From assembly GCA_963693365.1 (NCBI GenBank), contig CAVNZM010000013.1, positions 7,549,482 through 7,613,481 of the forward strand: a stretch of DNA of 64,000 nucleotides, given 5' to 3'. A model generated the notes under the pieces. That model made no database searches. It was not told the DNA's origin and saw only the letters and a program-made list of their open reading frames with translations. The position numbers and the translations under genes were made by a program. Of the stretch, positions 196 through 64,000 are shown piece by piece. Origin of the DNA: Amoebidium appalachense. Its lineage: Eukaryota > Protista > Ichthyosporea. Positions within the stretch are counted from its first letter, which is position 1. Every line of letters begins with the position of its first letter.

Positions 196-7430
<7,235 letters not shown>

Positions 7431-9502: not shown

Positions 9503-14471
<4,969 letters not shown>

Positions 14472-15000: not shown

Positions 15001-15448
15001 AAGAAGTGGAATGTTGCAGGATAGTAAAAGTGGCTGGATGACATTTTTTGCCGGTGATCATGGTATGACAAGTGCTTCGTGGTAGGTTTTATTCGTAAAA
15101 GATAGATTATCATACTGAGTAACACGCGCTTTCAGCGCATGTAGTGGCGAACGGCCCAGAAGGTTCTAGAATACTGCGTAGGACACCTCGATCTTTCTTT
15201 CGCAGCCTGGAAGTATTTCTGGATGTAGTAGTGGTCGTCTACTGCAAGGATGCAGCGGCAGTATGCGCGCTGCCAGCTGAGCACAGTTTCAAACTTTGCT
15301 GGGGGTATGTAGATGTACATGGGGTTTACACACTTTTTATTGCGTGGACACTGCCGGAGGCCCAGCCACATTCGACGGCCCACTGCGTTTTCCAGCGCAG
15401 CCAATCAAATGCAGCCAGTGCCAACCCCACAGGTGTCGGACCAAACCG

Positions 15449-18400
15449 ATGCCTAATTTATCCTTCTTCTTCTGGAATGCTCGGACACTGGGCCCCCAAA
15501 AGAGCCTCCCCCCCCGGGACACTCGATGATAAAATCAGCTACATACAACAACAGACAAACAACCACACGTTTACAGTGATTTGCGAAACACAGTTTAAAA
15601 ACCACCACAAATTCAACTCTACATTGGTCGACACATCCACACACCCCGGTTACGCGAAAAACCGAGGCATTATTGTACTTGCCGCACCACACGTGAGAGT
15701 GAAGTGCAAACCGGTAGCAAAAACGGAATTCTCGGTTTCTATAGAGTTTCTTTCTAATGTTTTTACTTTTGTATATTACCCACCATCTATGTCGGTTGTC
15801 GAATTGACTCACGAGTTGTCACAGTTACCAATGTCCACTGTTATTTTAGGTGATTTTAACACGCGACTCCACCACACAGACACACTGCAAGTGAGTGTCG
15901 GGTACCCATCTAAGCCCCCGGAGCGTGCTATCCCTTTAGCAAGGTATGTCCAAAGTCACACTTTGCGGTTCCCTCAAATATCCCATGCCCACAACACCGA
16001 CTGGGGAGTGGCCTTTTGGCCATCAACCATGTCAAAACTCTCTCTCCCTCCTAACCTCTCTAGGTCATCTGACCACTCTCCTATCCTTTTCCTACCTAAG
16101 ATCTCCCTTGATCTGCTCCCCCCTCCCCCTCCCACCTTTCGCCTCCGTCTATCCCAGCTTAAGTCACAGTGGGGTAGAGTTGATGTATGTGTATGCTATG
16201 CTACGAAACACCCTATATATATGCGCCTATTAGAATCTGCACAAGCCAGGCCAGATTCACATCTCGTACTAGATACATGCACTAACTTTATTGTTGATGA
16301 TTTGATAGATCTCGGTGATTATGCTGGCGGTGGTAGGAAGGAATATCCCGATGCTCTCTTGTTACCAAACACCACTCCCGCTAGACTAGGTGAACCCCTG
16401 TCTCAAAAGGAAAGCTTGCGCCGGCTTGCTAGTATGAATCGATTTGGCCCCCCTGCTCGTATTATTGGTGATACCACTGGAGACCCCCTCATAGACTCTG
16501 ATAAGTATTTCTCGGAACTGTTTAAAGATAGGACCCCCGCTCAGAAACCTATTGTGTGGCCTGTAGACCCATCTATCCCCATAGAATCGATCCTCCCCTT
16601 TTTCAGTCCCGATGCCATATGGTCTGTGATATCTAGTTATAGCTCTAGTAAGTCTTGTGGACCTGATGGACTCCCTGCTGGGTTTCTTAAAATCCTTGTT
16701 CCCTCCTACCCACAAAAGGAAAGTGATCGTGCTATTAAACCTGATCTTACTATCATGTTAAGCTCTCTCTTTTCTTGGTGTGTTAAATGTGGACATGTCC
16801 CGTCATCTTGGTTAGATACCTTAGTGATCCCCATAGTTAAGAAGGACTCTGAGGGCCCCATATCATCCTTTCGCCCCATTACACTAACCCAGGTTGTTCG
16901 TAGATTCTTTGAAGCTTGCTTACTTAGGTTATTTGCACATCACCCTAGGTTTCAATCTATTCTTCACATACACCCATGCCAATCCGCTTTTCGTAAAAAC
17001 AATTCATGTTATGTTCAAATAATGGCACTGCACGATTCTATGCAAGTTGGTGCACAATATGTTGGCTTTATTGATTGGAAAACTGCTTACGATTCTGTCT
17101 CCCCTGGTCTCCTATGGGAAAAGCTTGCTGCACGGGGTGTACCACACTGCATTGGTGTTCTGTTAGAAGCACTCTTGTCTCAAACCTATGGTAGAGCTGT
17201 GGTTAATGGGCATCTTTCATATGGTTTTGCTCGTACTAGAGGTCTCTTGCAGGGTTCATTGCTTAGCCCCTTTTTGTTTAACCTATTTATAGATGATTTG
17301 GCTGTCAAGATTTACGCCGAAAACGATGACCCTATTAATAACTTTCCGCCTGCACTTCTCTATGCTGATGATCTGTCCCTCCTTGCCCGTACCCCTAGAC
17401 GCCTGCAAAGATTGTTCGATGTAGTGTCAGAGTGGTGCAAGGCAAACCTTATGATCCTTAACATAGACAAATGTGGTGTTCTTGTACCTGATATAGCTAA
17501 CAATTTACACACATTTACATTATCATCTAAACCTGTACCTATAGTTCCAGAATACAAATATCTTGGTGTTCCGGTTGATTCTGGTGGTGTTATGTTTCCC
17601 CATATGGTCGAAAAGAGGGTAGAGTTGGCTCGTAAGCGGTTAGCTTTCTTCTCGGCTAATATTTTTAAAGACACACCCCTCCATCCTTCTATTAGACTTA
17701 CATTTATTCGCACTTTTGTCTTCCCGGCATGTGAATATGGTTTACCCCTTCTCGCCGCTTGGATCAAGAAAGAGAGAACTAGAGCGCTTAAACCCTTGGC
17801 AAATTTCCTTGAAGCAGAAGTTGCCTCCTTTCTATCTAACAACTGTTGTAAACCTGGGCCTGTAACGCTCTCGATATATGGTCTGGTCCCAATAGCTGCT
17901 AGAGTATCCTATCTCGCGCTGAAATTCAATAAGCACATAAGCCGCTTAAAGAAGTATTTGCCCTCCCACCCTCTCTTCTCTATCCGACCTGTCCCCTCCT
18001 CACCTCTCCCCTCTTTCCTCCCCTCTCTCTCCCCTTCTCCCCTGGGCACAAATACAAATAAACCCCGCAATAGTGTGTGTGTGACTTTGGACTGCCACTT
18101 ACTTATTAAACATGTACACAATCACAAGATAATCACGCAATATAACAAATGGAAAAAGATACCACACGACACTAGACCCGATGAAAGCATACACCTTGAA
18201 AAACTAAGCCTTATGTCTCGTTTTATATATACTGACCGCCTCAACCATATTGCCAAATATGGCACTCGCAAGTGTATAACACCTAAATACATATTACCTT
18301 CCTGTAGAACTGGTCTTTCTCTAGCTGATGGTATTATTGATCAATTACCACGCTTTTACTGTACACGTGCTATACAGTGGAGATCTAATAAGTATAAGGT

Positions 18401-18644
18401 GGCATCATTTGCATGCCCAAACAACACACACACACACCAGTTTAACCGGTCATGTATCGCCAAATGTAGTTTGATAGACCACATAATACCGCAACACACA
18501 CACATCACATTCACAACAGACACCCAGAAAGATAGCCTACCTGTAAATTACAACATCCTTGATTTTATACTAAACACGCGTAACTACGACCTGTTTATTA
18601 GATGTATTGATTGGCTTGAGAAACACATCACTACAAAATTATAG
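15449..18644 (+). CDS. APE-RT polyprotein with one +1 frameshift in the C8 run at 15508-15515
   Basis: MPNLSFFFWNARTLGPQKSLP joins the long open frame (PGTLDDKISYIQ...) if one C is removed. Confidence 0.85.
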
Positions 18645-18665
18645 CGCACGCGCACACACACACAC

Positions 18666-18720
<55 letters not shown>
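15449..18720 (+). mobile_element. Non-LTR retrotransposon with APE endonuclease + reverse transcriptase ORF and 3' (CA)n tract
   Basis: APE motifs WNAR (from ATG 15449, other frame), ICET, ILGDFN, SDHSPI. RT motifs GPDGLP, FRPITL, QSAFR, FIDWKTAYDSV, GLLQGSLLSPFLFNLFIDDL, YADD, YKYLG. Stop at 18642-18644 followed directly by (CA)n. No LTR, RNase H or integrase motif seen. Confidence 0.92.
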
Positions 18721-18752
18721 CCAGCTGATACCGAGTGTCCCGAGGGGAGCCC

Positions 18753-18797
<45 letters not shown>

Positions 18798-24219: not shown

Positions 24220-25649
24220 AGAAAGAGCCTCGAGCCAGAAAGAGAAGGAGGGGGAGAGAGCTTATTTAAGCCAAAAACCCTTCTCACGTATCAGTCACGT
24301 AGTGCTACTGCGATATCTATGTAGTAGGGAGCCCACCAGTGGATTAAAATTATTAGAATTGGGTTTCAACCCCTCTCCCGGTGTCATTACATTTATGCCA
24401 GTAGCAAAATATTGTTCCGAATCAGGTTATAAGTAAAAAGAATTCATCAATTTGTAGGAGGAAAACCACACTATCGGGCCTTTGTAAGGCCATATTCGAT
24501 AGTTTTTGAAGCGGTTTGGCCTTGCCGAGTCCTTTCAAGAAAACAGATTTTGATCCGAGATGAATAGCGGGTTTAGTGAATGAGTTTGTGTATCATGGGA
24601 TCCGCCTTTCTTGTCTTAGTAACTGTTCCATTCACCAACGAAGCTTTTACCAGAGAAATGCCTAAGTGGTCGTATACGTTTTGGCATTTGTTTTTCAGTT
24701 TGCGTGTTAAGTACTCCCCCCCCCCCCCCCCCAACCCCAACCCCCCTTCCCCCCCCTCCGTTTACCCCCCTACCCCCCTACCCCCCCCTCCCCCCCCCCC
24801 CCCCCACACACGCTTTGAAGCACAAATCACACGCCGTCGGTACTGGTGACCCTGGTGGTACCTCGGGCCTAGCTAAGACTCTGCTTATGTTGCATCATCA
24901 TGCCTCAATGACTTTATGTTGTCGTTTTTGCATGTCTCCATTGATATTTCATGTACTTGACTATCCCCAATTGAAGGATTGAATCCTCGCTGCACAGCCT
25001 GGGTGCACGCCATTTTTTTAACAACCCCCCCCCCCCCCCCCCCCCCCATCCCCTTAGCCCTCCCGGCCCGGGGTAGCGTTGTCATAATAATGTGTAGGTA
25101 CCCAAAGTAACACCTGGTGTACTGGTCCTCTCCTCTTCCCTTCCCCCCCCCTCCCCCTCCCCCTCCTACCCCCTCTTCCCCACCCTCTCCATCTCGGAGT
25201 CCCCCCTTTTTTCCTTCCGGTTTGCCCAAAAAAAAAAGGGGGGGGGGGGGGGGGGAGGGGAGGGGGGGGGGGAGGGGAGGAGGAGAGAGAGGGGGGGGGG
25301 GGGGGGGGGGGGGGATTTGGACTCTGGTGTCCCGTTCGACTAGAATAATAAGACTGGTAGGTCACAGCGTGTCGTGGTTGAGAATGGCATCATGGGCCAG
25401 GAAGAGCCTGGCTCGAAGAAATGCAAGCTGACTTGATCAGATGTTGTCTAGTGTGTAAGGCCTTGACAACGTGTGTGTTCACGGTGCTTGTGTTGTGTGT
25501 GTTGTGTGTGTGTATCCTGTGTGTTTATGTTATACGACAGGATATATGTTCCTTCTCTGCTGTTATGGCATCGTCACTTCAATTTCAGCCAAGTCGCCCG
25601 TTAGGATACATGTACGCCATAACGGTGTGTGTTTGTGTGTGTGTACTGT

Positions 25650-28885: not shown

Positions 28886-29402
28886 TTAGTCGACCTGAAT
28901 ACCAACGCCCTTTCGGATCGTGCCCCAGCCGATGAGTCTGTGGGAGAGGGGGAAGGGAAGGAGTGGGATCACGGGTGTGTGTGTTGTGTTAGCATGTGTG
29001 TGATTGTGAGAGGTGAGAGTATCACAGAGCTATACGGCACACATTTACGAGGTACATGCGACACAAAGCAGAAAATCCAGAAAAAGAGCACAAAGAGCAT
29101 GCACCATATGTTTGAGCCCATCCTTGACCGGGAAGGGGGGGGAGGGAGGGAGGGGGGGGGGGGGGGGGGGGGGGGGGATTTAAATACAATTCGAGTATGA
29201 AGTTCCCGTTCAAAACAGACAACACAGTGCAGATCGCAAAGCACACAAACAGATCAGGCATCATATGCAGAGCTCATATTAGGGGGGGGGGGGGGGGGGG
29301 GGAATGCATACCGCCAATGCTTCTCGACACGACGACTGAGGGCAATCTTCTCACCGACCTCAGTGCATACGGGGGAGGCAAGGGTGATCTTGGCCAAATC
29401 GG

Positions 29403-29502: not shown

Positions 29503-30338
29503 GAAAGCGGTAAACCAAAAGACAAGAGAACGCTTCCCCGCAAAACACAATGACCAACACACACATCTTGAACACATAGGCCCACCCATATCCCATCCTC
29601 CCAGCCATCATGTGTCCTCCAGCAGTGGACCGAGGCTCACATCCCACCCTTCTTTCGGAACAAACATATGACCCCCACCGGGGGGGGGGGCAGCTCACAC
29701 ACATCGAAACGACAGTAAGACAGGCATGGGAGGGGGGAGGGGGGGGGGAGATCTAGAGAGATAGATCTAGAGAGGGAGAGGGGGAGGGAGGAAGGTTTTG
29801 TGTGTATGTAATGCCTGCATGTCTCTAACCGAAGCCAGACTTTGCATATACATCTACCCACACACACACCTTTACAGCGACCACACGGCCACCAGTAGAC
29901 AGGGAGCCAATGTTCACCATCAACACCTCGTTCTTGGTCAGCTTCACCACCTTGGCCTGCTTCTTCTCTCCCTCCGTGCGCACACCCAGCAACCTGCGCA
30001 GCAGGAAATACGAAATTTCCAGCTCCGTGAAAATTTGCGGCAGGTTTCCGACGGTTCCGAGCACCTGCCCCACCATGCGGTCGGCACGGCAGAGTGTGGG
30101 GTCAATCTTGGTGCCCACACCTGCAAAGTAGGGGTTAGGTCTTGGTGGGTGGGGTCGATAAAACTTCATTTCTAGATTGGAAACAGGTGTGTGTGGTGGC
30201 CAAGCGCCGTTGCAAGGCAGGTTGATTTTGGGGAGCCACAGAAGACCCATTAAAGAATCGTTCAGAGCCCCCCTCCCCTCCAAAAACAACACCACAAAGT
30301 GCACCTGTACACTCTCCCTCCATCTCAACACCCAGCCG

Positions 30339-30374
<36 letters not shown>

Positions 30375-32765
30375 ACACACACACCCTTCCAAGCATACAC
30401 AGATACAACCTCCCAACCTCCCAACCCCCCCCCCTCTCCCCCACAGCCGTCTTATCCTCCGTGCAAGGCACACCTACCCACCACTCACACACACCCACAC
30501 GCGCGCAAATGCATGATAACGCACCAATCAGACCACCAGGCACGGCATACTGCAGAGCATTTTGCTCCGTGTTGAGGGTCTCGATGCGCGACAGAATCGA
30601 CCTGCAACCCACAAATCAGAACCAGGTTATAAGTTGCAAACACGCAACCGATTAACCCATTTTGCATACAGTGTGCAATCCTTGTCTCCCTCCCTTACGA
30701 TTGCAACACACTAAACACTGTTGATGCTACATCACCATGTGTGCATGTGGTCTTCATATTACAGACACGCCTTACTCGTCCATCGTAGATAGAATTATGT
30801 TTGTCTTTGTCTTGTGTGTACCTTCCCCCTCTCCCCCCCCCCCCCCCCAATCTGTCCTAACACAAACAATATTGATCACAACTGCTCCCCCCCCTCCCCC
30901 CCCCTCCCTCCCCTTCCCCCAAGTACCCCAACCACACGCGCATGCACACACACATTTACCCACCACTACAGCTAACCATTCCTCTGAAATCTCATCCCTT
31001 CATGCACGCACATACACATGCACGAACACACACGCACACGCACACGCCCACACCCACACCCATCCACCCACACACACCTGCATCGGATTCTGTTGTTTGC
31101 GTCCTTGGACACGATACCGGGGCGCACCTCAATCTCCATCCCCAACTGAAACCCACATTGCCAACCGTCAGACATCCAATCAAAATCCATGTTTCTACGA
31201 TTATGCAGATCTTGCTATCCATCGTACTTCGGGCAAGGAATTCACACAACATATCCACGATCACAGCCTTGATAATCCGCTCACACAGACCAAAAGGCAC
31301 AAAAACAACGAAGGTGTCCCAGAAACAAACAAGCATACAAAAAAGCCAGAATGAAACTGTAAGCAGACATCTCAAACACCAAATCCACATAGCAACACCA
31401 AATCCGCATAGCAATACCAAATCCACATAGCACAGAACAAATGGTATACGGTGGGGTGGCGGCCGCAAAGAACACAGACGTGGCTCTGGCACCGTTGCAA
31501 CGTCCGAAATTAAGGCCCCAGAACAAAAGAAATGCAATGGGCACCCGGACATGTGCCAAACAGGATATAGAAAGAAAACGGGAAGAAACGATCTCCAAAG
31601 AATAGAAAGTGAGAGGAAGAGAGCGAGGAATAGGCAGGAGGAAGGGAGCTGGGGTAGAAAGTACAGCACAGTGTGAAGTACAAAGATTAAACAAGTAAAA
31701 TCAGAAATCGGCAGCACATATGCATGCATGCATGCACACCCACACCCACACAAATGAAATGGTAAACATAGCAAAACACAAGATATAACTGTAGTCTGTG
31801 CGAGTGCGGCCCTCTACCCATGCGGTGGGGTGGCGGCCGCAAAGAACACGGACGTGGCTCTGGCACCGTTGCAGCGTCCGAAATTAAGGCCCCAGAACAA
31901 AAACATGCAATGGGTACCCGGACATGTGCCAACAGAATGTGCAAGGAAAAAGCGAAGAAAGGAGTTTTCGTGGAATAGGGGGCGGAAGGACAGAAGCTGC
32001 CGTAGAAAATGCCATGCGGTGTAAGGTACAAACAGTCAACGTGGGACCTAACGAACTGGCAAAGAAAAAAAAATGGATGCACACACACACACACACACAC
32101 ACATGCGCACACACACACACATGCATGAACACATGCTCAAACACACACCACACACAAATGAATCACAAGAGCAGAGCAAAATACAAGATACGACTGTAGT
32201 CTGTGCGAGTGCGGCCCTCTACCCATGCGGTGGGGTGGCGGCCGCAAAGAACACGGACGTGGCTCTGGCACCGTTGCAGCGTCCGAAATTAGGGCCCCAG
32301 AACAAAAGAAATCCAATGGGCACCCGGATATGTGCCAACAGAATGTGCAAGGAAAACGAGTACACACGGCATCCTTATCCTCCGGCACGTGAAGAATGCA
32401 AACGTGACAGTCACCGAGGAGAGCATGCAGGGTTGGAAACACACATGCCCTGGGTCGCACACACAGAGAGAGAACCAGCATTCCCCCCTTCCCTCTACCT
32501 CTCTCCCCACCCCCCCTACCCACCGCCACCACCTCCCCCTCTAAACACCATCACCCAGCCAACCACCATCACAACCAAATCTTTCCTTTCCCAATACAAA
32601 CAACACGTACCCTGAGCACACCGTGCAGAATGGAGCCACCAGCCACACCACCCTTCAAGTCATCAACCTCACAGCCGGGCTTGTTGACGTCGAACGAACG
32701 AATCACAATCAGGCGGGGGGGTGACGTGAAGTCCCGCATCGGGATGGGGATACGCTTAACCTGAA

Positions 32766-32823: not shown

Positions 32824-32864
<41 letters not shown>

Positions 32865-32985
32865 TGAATGCGTCAAAAAGTACGAAGTACACAAGAACAA
32901 ACGGATAACACGATGCAGAATGCAAGCCATACATAAAGAGTATGCATAATAAGCAGAGCCCATCCTCAGGGGGGGCCCACGTCAT

Positions 32986-33022
<37 letters not shown>

Positions 33023-33195
33023 ATAAGAAGATTGGCACATGGTACACGTCAAATCTTGCAATGGGTAGGGTCGGGGACTCGGGGAGATCAGGCAAAAAGT
33101 TAGACATGTACTAGATAATACGAAGTAGAAATCCACATAAGCTGACGCTGATTTTGTGGGTGAGAAAAAGAGAACCTGTGTTTCCGAGGGAGAAA

Positions 33196-33233
<38 letters not shown>

Positions 33234-33356
33234 AAATGCGTCAAAAAGTACGAAGTATACAAGAACAAACGGATAACACGATGCAGAATGCAAGCCATAC
33301 ATAAAGAGTATGCATAATAAGCAGAGCCCATCCTCAGGGGGGGCCCACGTCATCCA

Positions 33357-33406
<50 letters not shown>

Positions 33407-33705
33407 TGAATGTGTCATAAAGTAGGTAAGTACACATTCATACGGACAACACGATGCAGAGTGCAAACCACACATGAGGAATATGCGTAATAAGTAGAGC
33501 CCATCCTCAGGGGGGCCCCTTGTCATCCGGCGAAGGGGGGGAGGGGGGAGGGGGGGGGGGGGGGGGGGTTTGGATGCGTCAAAAAGTACGAAGTACACAA
33601 GAACAAACGGATAACACGATGCAGAATGCAAGCCATACATAAAGAGTATGCATAATAAGCAGAGCCCATCCTCAGGGGGGGCCCACGTCATCCACAGTAC
33701 CGAGT

Positions 33706-33745
<40 letters not shown>

Positions 33746-34473
33746 ACATACGATGTACTCGCACACACACTCGATGTTGTACTTGAGCTGGGCAGAGATG
33801 GGAACCACAGGGGCACCCTCGGCAACGGTACCTGCAAGCACACCACATGGTCAGCATGCAGGACAGGGAACAGGTTTGCTTGGGCGGCAGATGTCCTGGA
33901 AAGAAGGGTGTTGGTCAAAGAGGATATGCCCCTGTTATCCTGCTGGCTTGCATTGTTGCTCGAACACTTGCACAAATACAGAGAGTGTGTGTGCGAAAAA
34001 GATTCCGAACGTGGAGTGTGAGAGAACGAGGGATTGAGAGACAGGGAGAAGGAAGGGTGGGGGTTAAAGAGGAGGAAGAGATGGGAAGTGAGACGGAGCC
34101 AGATAGGAGGGGGTTCGGGAGGGGAGGGGGTGTGTGAGAGGGGAGAGAGAGAGAGAAGGGGAGGGAGAGAGTGAGGGAGTGAGGCAGACAGAGCCATAGG
34201 CATACCCTGTACGAACTTGAGGATCTGCTGGTACTGGTCCTTGGCCTGGCTCTCCTTGACCAGGTCGATCTTGTTCTGCAGGATGATGATGTGCTTGAGC
34301 TTCATGATCTCGATTGCTGCAAGATGCTCAGACGTCTGCGGCTGCGGACACGACTGTGCGCCGTGAAAGTGCAGGGGTGGAAAGGGGTGGACGGGGGTGG
34401 AAGGTGTGTGTGAAGTGTGGGGGGAGTGGTGTGGGTGAGGGTTGGGAGCAATGGGGCCACAGGGCAGAGAAAA

Positions 34474-34506
<33 letters not shown>

Positions 34507-35705
34507 TGTAAAGGCTGAAGCACGGTGTGTGTGTGTGTGTGTGCGTGTGTGTGTGTGTTTGTGTGTGTGCGCGCGCGCGCGAGCAAGAGAGCGTCAATGT
34601 GTGTATGTGTGTGCGCGCACTGGCGTATTTATCATGGGGGAGGAGGGGAGGGAGGGGGGTGGGGGGGGGGGGTAACACGGCGTGCCCAGGGAAAAGGGGA
34701 GAAATGATGTCAGTATACAGTGATAACCATTTCTCGGCGATAAAACTCGCTTCACACAGACAGGTGGTATTTCACAGCAATGCCGCTGGGTAAATATAAA
34801 ACTAGACTTCCAAGATCGTCCGAGAAGTTAAGGCACACATACAAACTGCATTAAACCACTCACAGTATTATCCATGCAGACAAACACATGCGCACACGTG
34901 TGCGGACACGGACATGCACACACGCAAGAATGCACACACATGCACAGGCATATCCTCACACAGACGAGCCCTAAGAGAAAGACAAAATGGCTAAAAGGGT
35001 TTTTTAATAAAAGCCCCCTCCCTCACCATTTCCCTCCTGCCCGCTCATAAACCTATTCCCTCATACACTCAACCAAAACCCACAACCACGACAAGAAAAC
35101 ACCTAATATAGATGTACACACATCCATGCACACGCACACACATTCATGTACACGCACAACCTCACGTACCAACCCTTCTATGTACAAACGGGTACGCAAG
35201 CACACACTAACATACCATACAGTGTGTGCATGCACACACGTCCGCCCACACCTCCACACATCCACACGTACACACACACACAAACACACACAGACACACA
35301 CGCACGCACACACACGTCTACACGTTCACACATTCACAAGTACACACAAGTACACACACCCACACACAGTTTCACAAACACAGGATCACGAACACACACG
35401 TCCACACGACACGTACACACGCACACCCACCTCGTTTCCAGCAATGAGCAGCAGTGCAGCATCCATCACAGCCGCACCGTTCAACATGGTGGCCATGAGA
35501 ATGTCGTGCCCTGGGCAGTCCACAAACGACACATGTCTGAGTCCCACGTGTCAGCACACAGGCCAAATCAGATCTTGCAGAGCAGACATAAGGAGTATGC
35601 ATAGTAAGCAGAGCCCATCCTCCAAGTCATCCACAGTACCCGGATTTCAACCCATTCACCTCGATTTCGAAGCCCAACTCAGACATTGCTTCACTCGAAC
35701 ATGGA

Positions 35706-35740
<35 letters not shown>

Positions 35741-36231
35741 AGGGGCGGGAGGGAGGGTCGAGGGGGGCAAGTAATGATGTGCGATGGACTATGTAAAGAT
35801 AGACACACCACGAAGGAAATGAAATTTGGGGGGGGGGGGGGGGGGGGGGGGGTTTGAATGCGGAACACAGTACGAAGTACGCATACACGATGAGAAGCAT
35901 GGTGCAGGACACATGCAAAGGCAAACATTCAAGTATGCAGCATCAGCCATGCGCACAGTATGCGTCATAAGCAGAGCCCATCCTCAGGGAGGGCCCAAGT
36001 CATCAATTGCGTCTGAGTTTCGACCCCTTAGCCCGCGTATATACGACGCTCCAACTCAGACAGCAGCAGGGGGGGGGGGGGGGGGGGGGGGGGGGGAGGG
36101 CAACAGGTACCTCATGACCTGGAAGTTTCCGGAGCAGCCTGGGCGGTCGCAGGGGAAGGTGTCCTCCTTGTTGCTGGGCGCTGACCGGTAGCAGCCGGGC
36201 CGGGGGCAGTTGTCATTGTCGCACTTGTACA

Positions 36232-38823: not shown

Positions 38824-38888
38824 GGTCCCTGTCTGTGCATAAAAAAGAGTAAGAAGCGCAAGGGGAGGGGGGGGGGGGGGGGGGAGGT

Positions 38889-38995
38889 GTGAAGGTGTTA
38901 CAGATTACGCAGTACACATTCATGCCAGACAACACAAAGGAGATTGCAAAACAAGCATCAACAGTGTGCAGCGTAAGCAAAGCCCATCCACAGGG
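38889..38995 (-). mobile_element. Family B old diverged copy in probable 5'UTR intron of eIF2-gamma
   Basis: TAAGCAAAGCCCATCCACAGGG and TACGCAGTACACA resemble the family consensus; next to a G-run. Confidence 0.5.
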
Positions 38996-39410
38996 ATGGA
39001 AAGAGATGTCGGCAAGGCATCTGAAGTCTTCAGGTATAGTTTGAAAACCTTTGGCGCAAGCTTGTGCTCTGTGTGTGTGTGTGTGTGTGTGTGTGTTGTG
39101 TGCACGCGCCCGCACTCATTCGCACCGGTGCGGATGCTGTATGCGTCTGTATGTGCGCTCGCACATTCATGTGCGCACTTGTGTAAATGCAGCACTTGTC
39201 TGCAGTGTGTGTGTGGGTGCATATGTCTTGCTTTCGTGTTACAGAACGTGTAATGCATGAGCATATGTAAATGGGTGTCGGTGTGGATGATGGTGTGTAT
39301 GTGTGTGTGTGTGTGTGTGTATATGTGTTGTGAGTGTGTGTGCGTGTGTGTGTGTGTTGCGTGTATGCATGTGTTTGTTGTGTGTGTGTGTGCACACGTA
39401 TGTCTGCATG

Positions 39411-42063: not shown

Positions 42064-43698
42064 CCCCCCCCCCTCCCCCGCTCCCTCTCTTCTCTCTCTC
42101 CCCCCCCCCTCTCTCTCTCTCCTCTCCCCTCTCTCCCTTCCTCCCTCTCTTCTCTCTCCCCCCCCCTCTCTCTCTCCCTCTCCCCTCTCTCCCTTCCTCC
42201 CTCCCTTCCTCCCTCCCTCCCTCTCTTTCTTGCTCGCTCTCTCGTTCCTCCTCTCTCCCTCCCTCCCCCCTCCCCCCCGTCGTTCTCTCCCTGTCTCTCT
42301 CCCTGCCCTCGTCCCCGCTCCCTCGCCCTGTCTGTCTCCCGCTCTATCTTTCCTCCCACTGTCTCTCGCGCTCCCCCTTATCTCCTCCTCCTTCAATAAA
42401 TAATTATAATATCGTCCTGGTTAGAAACTGGTTTACCTTAGTGTATGTATGTTCTGTTTGCACATGTCCGGGTACCCAGTGCATTTCTTTTGTTCTGGGG
42501 CCTTAATTTTGGACGCTGCAACGGTGCCAGAGCCACGTCTGTGTTCTTTGCGGCCGCCACCCCACCGCATGGGTAGAGGGCCGCACTCGCACAGACTACA
42601 GTTACTCTCCTTTCCTGCTATGTTTGTGCGCGCACAATCCTCTTGCATTTCATTTGGAATGGTTGTACTCTACGCTGCGTAGCGCTTTTTATTTCCTCCT
42701 CCCCCCTCCCCCCCCCCTCCAAACACCTCCCCGGACTTAGTAGAAGCCTGACGTATCTTGTGTTTGTTTGCTTGGGTTTCTTGTTTTGTATATTGTCAGA
42801 TATGGTTTTAATGTTTTTGTTTTTGTTTTTTGTTTTTGTTTTTTTTGTTTTTTTTTGTTTGTTTGTTTTTTTTGGGGGGGGGGGGTTGCTGTTCCGTGAA
42901 CAATTATGTTGCATTTGGCCAAGACAGGCTGACTCACCTACTGGTGTTGAAACAAAGTGTGGGTTGGGAAAAACGAACGACAGGTTGAAGAGCTGAATCC
43001 CTCCTTTTCGGAGGCCTAGGAACCCCTTTGATGATGGGCTTTGTTCAAGTTTCTTCTGCCTGCACACTTCCGTTTCATCTTTTGTGATTATATCATCGCG
43101 GTTATAAAATGGCGATGCTTCCATGGTTGCCACCCTCTGATGCATACCCCACCACCCCCACCCTCCCCCAGTTGCCCTTCTTCCCTCGCTTTCTTCTTGG
43201 AAAATCGTGTTTCCCCCTTTTTTTGCACATTCTGTTGGCACATGTCCGGGTACCCATTGCATTTCTTTTGTTCTGGGGCCTTAATTTCGGACGCTGCAAC
43301 AGTGCCAGAGCCACGTCCGTGTTCTTTGCGGCCGCCACCCCACCGCATGGGTAGAGGGCCGCACTCGCACAAGCTACAGTCGTATTGTGTCCTGCCCTTT
43401 TGATGAGTGTAATTACTGTTGTTGTGTGGACTTGGTGTTTGAAGTGTCTGTCAAGAGTTTATTATTTGAAGTTCATCCTCTTCAACTGTTGTTTGTGGTC
43501 TGTTTACTTAAAGCCCCCCCCCTCCCCCCCCTCCCCCCGGCCTATTTCCTTTCTATTTCCTGCTGGGGGGAGGTTGAATGTGAGGGGTGGGGCAGAGAGG
43601 GTTGTTTAAGAACTTTCAATGTGGTGTTGAGTCTTGCTTTTCGGAAGGGTTTGGTAAGATTGCTGATGCCTGCGTGCTACAATCTGCACAGATACACA

Positions 43699-43760
<62 letters not shown>

Positions 43761-44614
43761 CCATGCAAGAGCTCGTCTCTCGCCGCCTACGGTGGTGGCA
43801 CAAGTACACCAACACGCCCTCAAATTTCACTGTCGATCTCGCGCAATCAGCGGGAAATTCGTCATCACACGATTCGTCAAGAATCATCTACGCGCTTCCA
43901 TGGGGAGGGAGTGGGGGAGGTGGAAACCTTCTCGATTGTTCCGCCGCCTTCCGACGTTGGTGGGGTGGAGGTGAAATGTGTGGTGAGGGCAGCGGTTGGA
44001 CTGCCCCGGGCCACATATGCATTCCTATTGGATGGACTGCAGCCATTAGAAAACGAGGGTGCCCTGAATGCAGAAACCGTCCGGTACGAGCCACCCCCCC
44101 CCCCCCCCCCCCCCCCTCCCCACCGGCTTATCTTGCATACTGCGCGTGTTGCTGATGTTGCATACTTGAATGATTACTTTTGCCTGTGTCCTGCACCGTG
44201 TTTCTCATCTTGTTCTTGTACTTCGTACCGTGTTCCACATTCCCCCCCCCCTGCTGGACCCGTTAGGCACCAACCCTTGCTTTGCTCTTGGCCTTGGTTG
44301 GTTTTTCTGGGGGGTTGCCGTCCTTCCCATTATGATATTTTTATGTTTGTCTTCGTCTTTGTGTGTTCAGGTCTGATTTGTTATCCTAGAGTACGTAGAC
44401 GTGCCCGGGGATAGGGGGGGGGGGGGGGGGAGTTAAAAATGTTTTTTTGGAAAGGATGTGTGGTTGGTTTCAACGTGTGGGCTGTCGTGGCAGACATGCT
44501 TGCTACAATTTGTGTGCTGTTGGAGGGAAGGCAGGGGGATGGAGAGCTGCAATTCATGAACACTTTTTACTTAACTCTACGACCCCCCTCCCCCCTCCTC
44601 CCCCCTTCCCCCCA

Positions 44615-45215: not shown

Positions 45216-46962
45216 GGGGGGGAGAGAGAGGAGGGGGGAGGGGGGGCATTCTGAACAAGAAGTGTTGGCAAACTCAAAGCCGGCTCCTGACAGCATTCAG
45301 TACGTTTTATTCTGTATGAGCACGATTTACCTGAAATGAACTATGATTACAAGGCCATATCTGTGCGATATATATAGTAGCGTGTGCACATACTCGCAAA
45401 CACAAGCATGCTTATAAGCTCAACCGTTATGACTCATACTTAACGAAATGGAGAGTGGAGGCCCTTAAATTGTGAGCAATCGATGTCACGTCTGCAGCAT
45501 GAATTCGTGTGTTAATACATAACACCTCTTCATTGGTCAGGCTATTGCCATATAGGGGCAATACACAAAACACGGTGCACGTGTTTACTTGGTCTGATGA
45601 GCCGCTATTCTAGGAGATTGAAATAAATATGTCGCATATTTGCATATGGTTCAGTGTTATCCCCCCCTCCCCCCCCCCCCCCCCCCCCCCCCCCCTCCCC
45701 CCTCCCCCCCTCCCTCCACACACACACACACACACACCGTGTGTGTGCCGCCCTAACACCGCACACACCGAGTAGCCACAACCATCATGACCATCCGCCC
45801 CTCCCCCTCCCCCTTCCCTCGCGAGAATCCGGGGTCTCGAAAAAAATGCACACGTGTGCACAAAGTGTCACCCCAGGAAACACACAAAAAAGGGGGGCAA
45901 AAACACACTCCTGCATGCATGCTCACACGGCTGTCAATGGTTGTGTTGTGCGCATGCACACGCAGCTACTATAGGCCTAGGCCGGCCCTGTGAGCCCAAT
46001 AACAATACAGACAACGGGATAATGATACTATTAATCCCCCCCCCCCACACACGGCCACCCACCTTACCCCACTCAGGCCACCCCCACCCTCCTCCTCCTC
46101 CGCCTCGGCGGCCATTCATGATCACCCCTGGGTAGAGCCTACGTATTTATAGATGTCTTTTTTTAATTTGTTCTTCCCAAACAACAGCCATCGACCTGAT
46201 TTAAACCCGGCTTGCACTATCCAGCTGCTCGTACCATTGTTTGTTAGCAATTAGCAGCATCTATGGGGTTTACACACTTTTATTTGCTTGGTAGAGGGCC
46301 CAGCGTCGCCATGTCTGATCACCCTGCTGCGTTTTCCAGCTTAGTCCTACTGGCTAAGCGGGCTACAAAGAGAAAAGTACAACCCCAAGGTAATGTGTGA
46401 CTACTAATATAGAGAGAAAACGTACATATATATGCGTTATCGATCACGAACAGAAAAGATTTTCGCCGATGTAGAGGTTTATTTTCCCCATGGAAGCATG
46501 CTTTCAGACAGATGGCTACCACCCCACCCTTCAATGTCACAAATATCACACCTTGAGCATACCACAGAAAACTCGAGAAACATACGGTGATTCGACCTCT
46601 AGACATCTAGCCTAACGTTTAGAGTGCCAACCTCTTTGTATTTCTTCAACCTGGTAAATATCAGCTTTATCCTATAATAATGTAAAACCATGCAATGTAT
46701 GCGTACGAACCACAAGGCTGTGAAAAATTAGGTCTAATACGTGCATACGTTTTAGCTTAAGCCTATATTGGCATTTCGCGACATATAACTTCAACACGGT
46801 TATTAGTAACGTTTGTCGCCAACTCAAAATCATGCAACGATTGGTTTTTGCTTTCGTAAGACGCAATCTTCCAAGGCATGCGGGCGACAGTCCCAGACAA
46901 AGGAATCGCGTACGTTACGTATAGCAACACAGTCGCTAACACAGAGTGTACACCACTCAATC

Positions 46963-48940: not shown

Positions 48941-49676
48941 AATGGGGAGGGGGGGGGGGGGGGGGGGGGGGGGTCTTAGGGTTACGTCTTTAGCTCACAC
49001 GTACAGTCTTCAACCCTTCCCCCTCCGCCCCCTCCCCCCTTCCACCCAGGATTGGAGGAGAAATAAAAATCAAAGGAGAAGAAATACGTATCGTTTCAAC
49101 TTCAACACCCAATCTTCCTCCATGCCCATGTTTGTGTTCACTTTAACCTCCCCACCGATTTGATCGAAAAATCTCAACGACAAATGTGCGCGCACACACA
49201 CACTACACATAAACACAACCACACCTCTGCAACCTCCCCCGTCGTAACAATCTTGCCTTCTGCATCTCATGCGCTCCACGCTCCCAGTTGCTTTTCATCC
49301 CCCCCCCCCCCCCCCCCCCCCCCCCCTTCTACACACACACACACACACACACATCTCCTTCCCAATCGGGTCCCAACACCACACTAAAAACACACACCGC
49401 AAGCGCACACAGACACACACAGGGAAAGACGGATGCTGGTCATTCTTTCAGAACACGAAGCAGGCGCAGGGCAGGTATGCCTCCCCTCCCCCCTCCCCCC
49501 CCCCCCCCCCCTCACCCTCCCGCTCCCTTCCCCCCCTCACTCCACCCCCCCCCAACCGGGGCCGGGGGGTTAAAATGTGCCACAGAATTCGAGAGTATAC
49601 ATCCATGGCAGACACCACAATGCAAATTACACAAAGCACACACAAAGTGTATGCATCTAAGCAGAGTCCATGCTTC

Positions 49677-49709
<33 letters not shown>

Positions 49710-49866
49710 AACAAGTTAAACACAGTACACGAGGTTCGAACCATTCACCTCGGTCAACGAGACCTAACTCGCTTACACTTTGTTCAAGGCGGGTGACCCA
49801 CCCATGTACGAGACGAGCAGGATCACAAGCAAGAGCAGTAGGGCGGCGGCGGCGGCGCGGGGGGCT

Positions 49867-59937: not shown

Positions 59938-61020
59938 CACAGAGTGTGTGTGGGTGGCTGGGTGGGTGGGGCGGGGGGAGGGAGGGTTGGAGAGGGGGAG
60001 GGGGCCGAGGAGGGGGGGGGGGGGGGGGGGGGGGGGAGGAGGTCAGAAGGTGTTACAGAGTACGAAGGTACGCATTCAAGATGGGCAACACCAATGCAGA
60101 TTTCGTGGAAAAGAGCAAACACCCAAAAAATTTCATCATCAGTAGAGCCCATCCACAAGGGCGGCCCAGCCTATTCAGGAGGGGAGGGGGGGGGGGGGGG
60201 GGGGGGGTAGGAAGACGATTCGTGGGGAGGGGGGGGGATGGGAAAGGGTGAAAAGGGGGGGGGGGGGGGGGGGGGGGAGAGGATTGATTGAGGATGATCA
60301 ATGTTGATTTAGGAATGAGCTTATTGGTTTGGGTATCGAAGGGTTGGGGGCGGAGGGGGGGGAGGGGGAGGGGTTTGTGCGTGTGTATCCCACCCGCGAC
60401 ACGGTGAGAGGGGGAGAGGGGGTTGCACAAAGAGACAAAGAAGAAGACAGTAAGTTTGCGCATGTGCAAAGGTGCCGAGAAGGAGATGCTAAAAATAGAC
60501 ACATGGATGGAGTCTACATGCAGAGTTGAAGACGTTTGGAAGGGGAGGGGGGACGGGAGTACGAGGGGAGACCGGGGGGGGGGGGGGGGGGGAGGTTTGG
60601 AAGTTTGCGAAATTTTGGACGGAGACAACTAGCAGGCAGACTAGTTTGAAAACCGAACGAGGGAGGAGGGGGAGGGGGGGAAAGGTTGTTGTTAGACGGG
60701 AGAGGGGGGGGGGGAGGGGGTAGAATGTATGATGTGGTGTGTGTGTGCGTGTGTGTGTGACTAGAATCGATATTCAACGACTGTTATCTCTTATTTGAAC
60801 TTTTTTGGGGGGGAGGGGGGGGGTGGGAGGCGGGGGAAAGGGGGGGGGGGGGAGGGGGGGGGGGGAAGAAGGGGGGGAGAGGGGGAAATGGCAAGAGCGG
60901 GGCAGTGAGAGGGGGGGGGGGGGGGGGGGGGGGGGGGGAGGGGGGGGGGGGGGAAAGGGGGGGGGGGAGGGGGGGGAAGAAGGGGGGAGAGGGGGGAAGA
61001 TGGCAAGAGCGGGGCAGTGA

Positions 61021-63693: not shown

Positions 63694-63855
63694 TGTGTGT
63701 GCGTGCGTGTGTGTGTGTATGCGTGTGGGCTGTGTCTGCGCCTATGTTTTCGTGCGCGCATGTGTCCTCTCTCTCTCACCTTCTCCGCCCTTTTCCCTAC
63801 CTGGGCCCCACCCCTCAACACCTTAACACAAACATGACGTTGATTCCTTACTCCC

Positions 63856-63966
63856 CTTGGCCCCCTGAGGATGGGCTCTATTTCTCATGCATACGTTGTG
63901 CTCTAAATTGTCTGCTTTGTGTTGTCCAACGGGCATATGTACTTGTGCTCTGTAATGGATTCTAAC
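63856..63966 (+). mobile_element. Family B diverged copy in SAP30 intron
   Basis: GGCCCCCTGAGGATGGGCTCT..ATGCATAC..TGTACTT..ATTCTAACC followed by a C-rich tract. Confidence 0.7.
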
Positions 63967-64000
63967 CTTCCCCCCTCCGCCCCTTCTCTCCCCATCCATC

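What the first reader, a model, noticed from the sequence alone, without database searches (positions are those of the whole stretch)
32863..36068. Family B: candidate poly(C)-targeting non-autonomous retroposon, found only in introns and only sense to the host
Seen: about 14 copies (3982, 13459, 13977, 32863, 33233, 33405, 33569, 35582, 35853, 38889, 44125, 49571, 60043, 63856) in introns of 6 different genes, none intergenic. Copies that retain the 3' end finish at ..CATTCAAA (or a variant) directly followed by poly(C). The 5' ends stop at different points and often abut another poly(C) run. Two young subfamilies (3982/13977/35853 and 32863/33233/33569) coexist with old ones. Established: a fixed 3' end with variable 5' truncation is the signature of target-primed reverse transcription. 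Inference: a SINE-like element that inserts into, or primes on, C/G homopolymers rather than A/T-rich sites. I know of no described element with this specificity.
Basis: partly seen in the sequence, partly recalled or inferred. Interest (0 to 1): 0.85.

Follow-up and report, generated by a model that had tools for sequence, protein, structure and literature searches.

The report
Poly-C-seeking Penelope-like parasite in holozoan introns
A short repeat that sits in runs of C inside the introns of a single-celled relative of animals is likely a non-coding passenger of a Penelope-like retroelement, a behaviour already described in the green alga Chlamydomonas but not found in print for this lineage.

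Summary
The family is real. All 14 listed copies are present, plus 5 more: 19 copies in 12 introns of 7 genes, all sense to the inferred host. The 3' end is fixed, 5' ends are variable (median length 130 nt), and 13 of 19 copies have poly(C) at each end against a 9% background. The host is an ichthyosporean by its eIF2-gamma match. Sequencing-run contigs show a very large family and head-to-tail multimers of a ~450-nt unit: a 393-nt body, about six C and a 53-nt linker. One weak window copy keeps 7 nt of that linker as a 3' tail, and one copy has a 21-nt target-site duplication. The claim that no such element is described is wrong. Chlamys Penelope-like elements target (C)n, and non-autonomous Chlamys-N4 with its autonomous partner makes 5'-truncated insertions of median 128 bp, all intronic. 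Intron and sense bias mostly follow where poly(C) lies. No partner reverse transcriptase was found, so Penelope-like membership is inferred (about 0.6), and no empty site was shown. New member of a known kind, in a new lineage.

The parts
3871..4263 (+). Longest copy (393-nt body), young subfamily 1, just after the 5' splice site of an intron
3845..3865 (+). Left copy of a 21-nt interrupted-C target-site duplication (5 further C lie between it and the element)
4268..4288 (+). Right copy of the 21-nt target-site duplication (4 further C lie between the element and it)
6397..6454 (+). Weak 3'-end fragment followed by the first 7 nt of the multimer linker (tail) and then poly(C)
   Evidence: (E 2.7), 37 table 7, 44
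13400..13706 (+). Old, near full-length copy of another subfamily
13751..13838 (+). 88-nt 3' fragment between poly(C) tracts
13977..14220 (+). Young copy, 244 of 244 identical to the 3871 copy; 15-nt C-rich string shared by both flanks
29030..29136 (-). Old copy, tandem partner of 29178, last eIF2-gamma intron
29178..29281 (-). Old copy, 5' end at the internal C run
32863..32987 (-). Young subfamily 2 copy, eIF2-gamma intron cluster
33233..33358 (-). Young subfamily 2 copy
33405..33534 (-). Older subfamily 2-like copy (104 of 122 to 32863), head-to-tail between 33569 and 33233
33569..33708 (-). Young subfamily 2 copy, after the poly(C) that follows the 5' splice site
35560..35707 (-). Old copy lacking the 3' end
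35853..36068 (-). Young subfamily 1 copy between pure poly(C) tracts
38886..38999 (-). Old copy in a probable 5' UTR intron of eIF2-gamma (acceptor seen, donor not located)
42905..43150 (+). Very old copy
   Evidence: (E 8e-4)
44123..44241 (+). Middle-aged subfamily 1 copy after the 5' splice-site poly(C)
49570..49840 (-). Old long copy whose internal C run has expanded to about 30
60040..60176 (-). Old copy between poly(C) tracts
63850..63967 (+). Old copy in the intron after the SAP30 zinc-finger exon
24836..24983 (+). Possible 20th, highly decayed copy; host orientation unknown; not counted
   Evidence: z 6.2 against copy 33569, 0 of 200 shuffles; missed by the second profile

Best explanation
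Family B is a high-copy, non-coding repeat of about 450 nt per unit that sits in poly(C) tracts and is likely a non-autonomous Penelope-like retroelement, copied by a reverse transcriptase-endonuclease supplied in trans that was not found. Shown: fixed 3' end, nested 5' ends, poly(C) on both sides, head-to-tail multimers joined by about six C and a 53-nt linker, one copy with 7 nt of that linker as a 3' tail, one target-site duplication. Inferred steps: (1) tandem units are transcribed, partly as host intron RNA; (2) the partner protein nicks the G strand of a C/G tract; (3) reverse transcription starts inside the multimeric RNA at the unit boundary, sometimes a few bases further on, which leaves the tail; (4) synthesis usually stops early, and the cDNA's G run, copied from the internal C run near position 255, would anneal to the target's C run, giving the ~130-nt truncation hot spot; (5) repair duplicates part of the tract, so new copies land beside old ones. 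Copies are intronic and sense mainly because this genome puts poly(C) on the sense strand of introns, often right after the 5' splice site.
For: Ends, lengths and flanks. 21-nt duplication with three interruptions at copy 3871, matched by 32 of 13,695 random tract pairs (about 0.04 after 19 copies were looked at). Family size: 14,598, 9,641, 142 and 35 contigs laid from runs X1, X9, X13 and X17; summed depth falls sharply at the 3' end and rises in steps towards it (X9: 152k at 3870-3892, 925k at 4123-4145) (X1 may be the source of the window; depth is no copy number). Multimer: X17 record 17 reads 4197-4269, then 53 letters, then 3871-4030 in sense order (order confirmed by the same record). 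The 30-nt loose ends behind 4269 (22 contigs, X1) and before 3871 (21 contigs in X1, 1 in X13 with 52 letters) overlap by 7 (6 of 7 alike), which gives 53. Other joints run from a 3' end through C's into a truncated copy (4255 to 3908, 4275 to 4123), and 32 X9 contigs have poly(C) directly before 4126. Copy 6397 is followed by the first 7 letters of the linker. Literature: (C)n targeting, multicopy head-to-tail non-autonomous families, no canonical hammerhead; median 128 bp, all intronic; tail signature described as unique to PLEs.
Against: No Penelope-type RT or GIY-YIG ORF among 215 window ORFs scanned, and no genome is held to search. No inverted 5'-truncated partner copy was seen in the window or in the 15 of 65 joints shown. 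The 53-nt piece could be the true 5' head of a monomer, not a PLE tail, and the tail rests on one weak copy. The duplication is not flush with the element, and other flanks are pure C, so a C tail made by the element is not excluded. The purified anole PLE starts reverse transcription at a site without homology to the cut DNA, unlike inferred step 4 and a C-primed start. Chlamys is listed only from green lineages, Physarum and Ectocarpus. Sense bias slightly exceeds target bias (p about 0.02-0.06 for 12 introns, computed).
Confidence: 0.6

Rival explanations
1. A SINE-like or LINE-derived short element mobilised by a LINE with a C/G-tract-nicking endonuclease.
For: Fixed 3' end, 5' truncation and a 15-21-nt duplication fit LINE-type insertion. 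An RT-encoding LINE lies in the window at 15123-18644, with a 97% identical EukProt protein. A B-box-like string is present in 6 of 19 copies.
Against: That LINE shares no sequence with family B (best blastn E 2.1) and ends in (CA)n and poly(A). No tRNA or Rfam head. The B-box-like string lies 220 nt inside the unit, a strict A box was found in 1 of 19 copies, and T4-T5 runs precede it. Stereotyped multimers with a short fixed junction are not typical of SINEs (own knowledge).
Confidence: 0.22
2. A rolling-circle DNA element (Replitron- or Helitron-like) with one fixed end and read-through that makes multimers.
For: Replitron-1 inserts in an orientation-specific way, carries downstream sequence of its parent and makes variable duplications; multimers and a tail fit read-through.
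Against: No terminal direct repeats and no terminal inverted repeats in the 393-nt body. The 3' end is not CTRR and has no strong hairpin (z 0.07; the Helitron end rule is recalled). Pervasive one-sided truncation is not among the Replitron features in the passages read.
Confidence: 0.08
3. A dispersed satellite-like unit spread by slippage and recombination between poly(C) tracts, without a retro step.
For: Three near-identical copies within 850 bp of one intron; C runs expand in place (copy 49570); head-to-tail arrays exist.
Against: The three neighbours have different 5' ends and different last bases; identical copies lie 10 kb apart in different genes; one end is fixed while the other is nested; one copy has a duplicated target.
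Confidence: 0.06
4. A family of intron-encoded functional RNAs (snoRNA-like or ribozyme-released retrozyme), which would explain intron-only, sense-only placement.
For: 19 of 19 sense; a CUGAGGA-type string resembling half a hammerhead core in 9 of 19 copies; one contig holding part of the element has depth 1380 against 11 for the intron in a run guessed to be RNA.
Against: No Rfam match; folding no better than shuffles (z -0.6 whole, -1.5 to +0.1 in parts); covariation term -0.06 on 4 sequences; no second hammerhead core in a workable position (judged by eye); most copies are truncated and decaying.
Confidence: 0.04

Closest known systems
Chlamys-N4_cRei with Chlamys-9_cRei, Chlamydomonas reinhardtii (PMC9977147)
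   Same: Non-autonomous element, (C)n target, 5' truncation to a median of 128 bp (here 130 nt), all insertions intronic in line with where the target lies.
   Different: There the autonomous partner is known and new insertions were observed. Here the host is an ichthyosporean, no partner was found, and sequence similarity to Chlamys was not tested.
MRC1 and other non-autonomous Chlamys (PMC8557442)
   Same: Multicopy head-to-tail insertions, microsatellite targeting that hides duplications, no canonical hammerhead ribozyme.
   Different: They share 3' ends with autonomous families, which is not shown here. The listed hosts are green lineage and Physarum, later Ectocarpus.
Penelope/Poseidon PAc of Anolis (PMC11167929)
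   Same: Tandem loci, internal start of reverse transcription, optional tail taken from the next unit.
   Different: AT-rich target, a hammerhead ribozyme, a 30-40-nt tail and a coding ORF; the start site is not homologous to the cut DNA.
Non-LTR retrozymes (bioRxiv 10.64898/2026.07.22.740005, abstract only)
   Same: Short non-autonomous tandem units proposed to derive from PLEs.
   Different: They carry hammerheads and are reported as excluded from introns; family B has no full hammerhead and is intronic.

Membership tests
Non-autonomous Penelope-like element (Chlamys-type) | Fixed 3' end with frequent 5' truncation | tested here: met
   15 of 19 end at reference 388-393; 5' ends 1-346; depth steps
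Non-autonomous Penelope-like element (Chlamys-type) | Insertion in (C)n | tested here: met
   13 of 19 at each end against 9.4%; one 21-nt duplication; empty site not shown
Non-autonomous Penelope-like element (Chlamys-type) | Head-to-tail tandems / pseudo-LTR arrangement | tested here: met
   X17 record 17 and loose ends in X1 and X13; window arrays 33233-33708 and 29030-29281
Non-autonomous Penelope-like element (Chlamys-type) | Optional tail taken from the next unit | tested here: inconclusive
   53-nt linker seen at both ends in contigs; only one weak window copy has 7 nt of it before poly(C)
Non-autonomous Penelope-like element (Chlamys-type) | Inverted 5'-truncated partner copies | tested here: inconclusive
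   None in the window; 15 of 65 joints shown, none changes strand
Non-autonomous Penelope-like element (Chlamys-type) | 3' end shared with an autonomous element encoding GIY-YIG plus telomerase-like RT | not testable with these tools
   No genome held; none among 215 window ORFs; metagenome and viral scans empty
SINE (Pol III head, LINE tail) | tRNA-, 7SL- or 5S-derived 5' head with A and B boxes | tested here: not met
   the 53-nt linker itself could not be scanned
SINE (Pol III head, LINE tail) | 3' end shared with a LINE | tested here: inconclusive
   Not shared with the one LINE in the window; other LINEs of the genome were not available
Retrozyme | Complete hammerhead ribozyme | tested here: not met
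   Only a half-core string; Rfam negative; linker not scanned
Replitron / Helitron / MITE | Terminal direct repeats, CTRR plus hairpin end, or terminal inverted repeats | tested here: not met
   on the 393-nt body

The most novel reading that the evidence does not exclude
Family B is driven by a poly(C)-targeting retroelement outside the known Chlamys range: either the first such Penelope-like clade in unicellular holozoans, bridging Chlamys and the animal Naiads, or a LINE-type enzyme that nicks C/G tracts. It propagates as a ribozyme-less multimeric or circular ~450-nt RNA and has made the poly(C) tract behind the 5' splice site its safe harbour, with a strand bias beyond target supply that would point to co-transcriptional insertion.
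Probability: 0.25. Interest if true: 0.6.

Novelty: new member of a known kind. Interest (0 to 1): 0.38.

Why it matters
It would extend (C)n-targeting Penelope-like behaviour to a unicellular relative of animals, between the green-lineage Chlamys and the animal Naiads, and point to an unfound partner enzyme with C/G-homopolymer specificity. Craig et al. name the mechanism of microsatellite targeting as open. A young, high-copy family with a stereotyped multimer junction and a truncation hot spot at an internal C run would be a good substrate for testing it. It also shows how a mobile element can live on an intron feature and enlarge introns. The targeting principle itself is already in print.

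Tried and rejected
No whole genome is held, so genome-wide end plots and a partner search could not be run. Exact-motif scans found nothing in metagenome contigs or viral contigs. Two motifs of the linker are absent from the window at up to 3 mismatches.

Empty site: 17 contigs of run X9 join 3869-3871 to 4264-4265, but with only 21-26 C-rich letters a side and unknown letters between. They may come from any poly(C) locus, so I did not count them.

Partner: loose ends before 13550 in X12 and X13 are open in the frame ending at the stop at 13554, which suggested the end of a partner ORF. Only 10 codons are visible, chance is high (about 0.24 for three), and none of the 241 stored proteins ends that way: rejected as evidence. 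The window LINE shares no sequence with the element, and its 120 relatives hit nowhere else in the window.

RNA: no RNA holder is listed on record; X12 is only guessed to be RNA. Structured-RNA readings (snoRNA boxes, hammerhead, tRNA) found no support.

'None intergenic' is not significant: 13 tracts in 7.6 kb called intergenic against 94 in 33.5 kb of genes gives p about 0.2 for 12 introns (computed), and about 19 kb of the window was left unassigned. Three look-ups of earlier findings returned nothing. Known Chlamys proteins could not be used as queries, so whether ichthyosporeans hold a Chlamys-like protein stays open.

Full report
Setting. The window is eukaryotic and rich in microsatellites: 67 C runs and 91 G runs of 10 or more. 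No whole genome is held. An eIF2-gamma exon (29870-30121, minus) has its highest identity, 96%, to a EukProt protein labelled Ihof, against 80-90% for the other 119 listed hits. I read Ihof as Ichthyophonus hoferi (recalled), so the host is an ichthyosporean by inference; the genus is not established. tblastn with that protein maps the eIF2-gamma exons from 38808 to 29314. Pfam gives the orientation of an amino-acid permease (minus), a SAP30 gene (plus) and, weakly, a ZIP-like gene (plus). The attractin-like, GlyRS-like and 59.6-61.7 kb genes were oriented by reading ORFs and splice signals, and their names are recalled.

Observation. A profile from 13 seed copies recovered all 14 listed copies and 5 more: 19 copies in 12 introns of 7 genes, all sense to the inferred host. 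Against the 393-nt copy at 3871-4263, 15 of 19 reach positions 388-393, while 5' ends range from 1 to 346, with 10 of 19 at 225-271 around an internal C run. Median length is 130 nt (borders were set from profile hits). The two young subfamilies are as stated (244 of 244; 120-123 of 122-124) and are 97 of 123 alike. 13 of 19 3' flanks and 13 of 19 5' flanks hold 17 or more C in 25 nt, against 9.4% of sense-strand gene positions. The six without a C-rich 3' flank are 13400, 29030, 35582, 42905, 44123 (10 C only) and 49570. A possible 20th decayed copy at 24836-24983 scored z 6.2 against one copy but was missed by a second profile; its host strand is unknown and it is not counted.

Target or tail. 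Copy 3871 has the same 21-nt C pattern with three interruptions on both sides (3845-3865, 4268-4288). Of 13,695 random pairs of C tracts, 32 share as much. It is not flush with the element, and most other flanks are pure C and uninformative. This favours insertion into an existing tract but does not prove it. An empty site was not shown (see Tried and rejected).

Intron and strand bias. Within the seven genes there are 74 sense and 20 antisense poly(C) tracts; leaving out tracts beside copies, 52 and 19. All-sense in 12 independent introns then has p about 0.02-0.06, against 2e-4 with no bias (computed). Several copies (3871, 29178, 33569, 35853, 44123, 49570) follow the poly(C) that comes just after the 5' splice site. 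Absence from intergenic DNA is not significant (p about 0.2). Target supply explains most of the title claim, and a small excess remains.

Beyond the window. Twenty of 24 listed runs hold the element, under four organism codes; 5 are marked as a possible source. I laid 4 of the 24 on 3640-4300 and 4 (3 of them the same) on 13275-13735; only the top rows are shown (15 of 65 joints, 24 of 727 loose ends, 32 of 24,761 pieces). 14,598, 9,641, 142 and 35 contigs were laid. The flanking exon has depth 22 and 12 in X1 and X9, and the element 1e5 to 2e6 summed, which is no copy number but shows a very large family. Depth collapses at the 3' end and climbs in steps towards it; 32 X9 contigs have poly(C) directly before 4126, the internal C run. 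X17 record 17 reads, in sense order, 4197-4269, 53 other letters, then 3871-4030; the record positions confirm that order. Loose ends behind 4269 (22 contigs, X1) and before 3871 (21 in X1; 1 in X13, 52 letters) overlap to give the same 53. So the unit is about 450 nt and forms head-to-tail multimers with about six C at the junction. The weak copy at 6397 ends with the family's 3' end, then the first 7 letters of this linker, then poly(C).

What it is not. No tRNA or Rfam family matches. Folding is no better than shuffles and covariation is nil on 4 sequences. There is a half hammerhead core in 9 of 19 copies, without a workable second half. There are no terminal direct or inverted repeats. 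The linker could not be put through these scans. The only RT among 215 ORFs is a LINE at 15123-18644, which shares nothing with the element.

What is known. Craig et al. 2021 (PMC8557442; abstract, sections 6, 9, 10, 15, supplement term searches and parts 1-2 of 59) report (C)n and (CA)n targeting for many Chlamys PLEs (13 of 49 families list (C)n), frequent 5' truncation, tails, no canonical hammerhead in most, and non-autonomous families such as MRC1 with multicopy head-to-tail insertions. PMC9977147 (passages and section 7) reports the Chlamys-9/Chlamys-N4 pair making insertions of median 128 bp, all intronic, in line with the (C)n target. PMC11167929 (parts 1-2 of 4) shows internal initiation and calls the tail unique to PLEs, but finds the start site not homologous to the cut DNA, which differs from my inferred C-run annealing. 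PMC10288648 (passages) gave the Replitron features, and PMC12477816 (passages) adds Ectocarpus to the Chlamys range. The retrozyme preprint was seen as an abstract only.

Searches for a report in this lineage. Eight searches listed no paper on a PLE or poly(C) element in ichthyosporeans. The Amoebidium genome paper (PMC11244446; passages, section 6, supplement term search) does not use the words Penelope or SINE, and bioRxiv 10.64898/2026.05.21.726589 (passages) does not use Penelope or Chlamys. Figures, repeat libraries, closed preprint supplements and subscription papers were not seen and may hold this family as 'unknown'.

Mechanism and verdict. It works like Chlamys-N4 and MRC1; membership is unproven because the partner enzyme is missing. 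I put a non-autonomous PLE at 0.6, a LINE-driven element at 0.22, a rolling-circle DNA element at 0.08, recombinational spread at 0.06 and a functional intron RNA at 0.04. What is new is the lineage, the ~450-nt multimer anatomy and the use of the splice-site poly(C). Interest 0.38.

Noticed in passing
window 15123-18797 (+): LINE with one 1173-codon open frame (RT by Pfam, endonuclease-like N-terminus by eye), followed by about 35 CA repeats, 40 nt and a poly(A). A 97% identical EukProt protein starts in another frame at 15449, so this copy likely has a frameshift near its start.
   Followed up: partly
window 31446-31620, 31764-31963, 32183-32368, 42448-42625, 43179-43390: A second repeat family (87-95% alike, about 175 nt), locally clustered, 5 of 5 in the same orientation relative to the host gene and without poly(C) flanks. 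No Rfam hit of note for the first three. It hints at a general strand filter on intronic insertions.
   Followed up: partly
whole window, e.g. introns at 3833, 29311, 33744, 36100, 44085, 61618: Recurring intron layout: GT donor followed at once by a poly(C) tract, and a (CA)n tract running into the CAG acceptor. It may be a lineage-specific splicing code.
   Followed up: partly
window 13550-13588, run X12 record 15: A 224-nt contig holding part of family B with other sequence on its 5' side has depth 1380, against 11 for the intron, in a run only guessed to be RNA. It could be an abundant transcript carrying the element's 3' part.
   Followed up: partly
window 24836-24983 (+): Possible decayed family B copy between poly(C) tracts in a region whose gene strand is unclear; it could break the all-sense rule.
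   Followed up: partly
window 15315-15410 and 46255-46345: Two intergenic stretches share a short motif series by eye; not tested.
   Followed up: no
window 12420-12700 and 12730-12960: Local duplication of about 280 nt inside an intron, bounded by C and CA runs, seen by eye.
   Followed up: no
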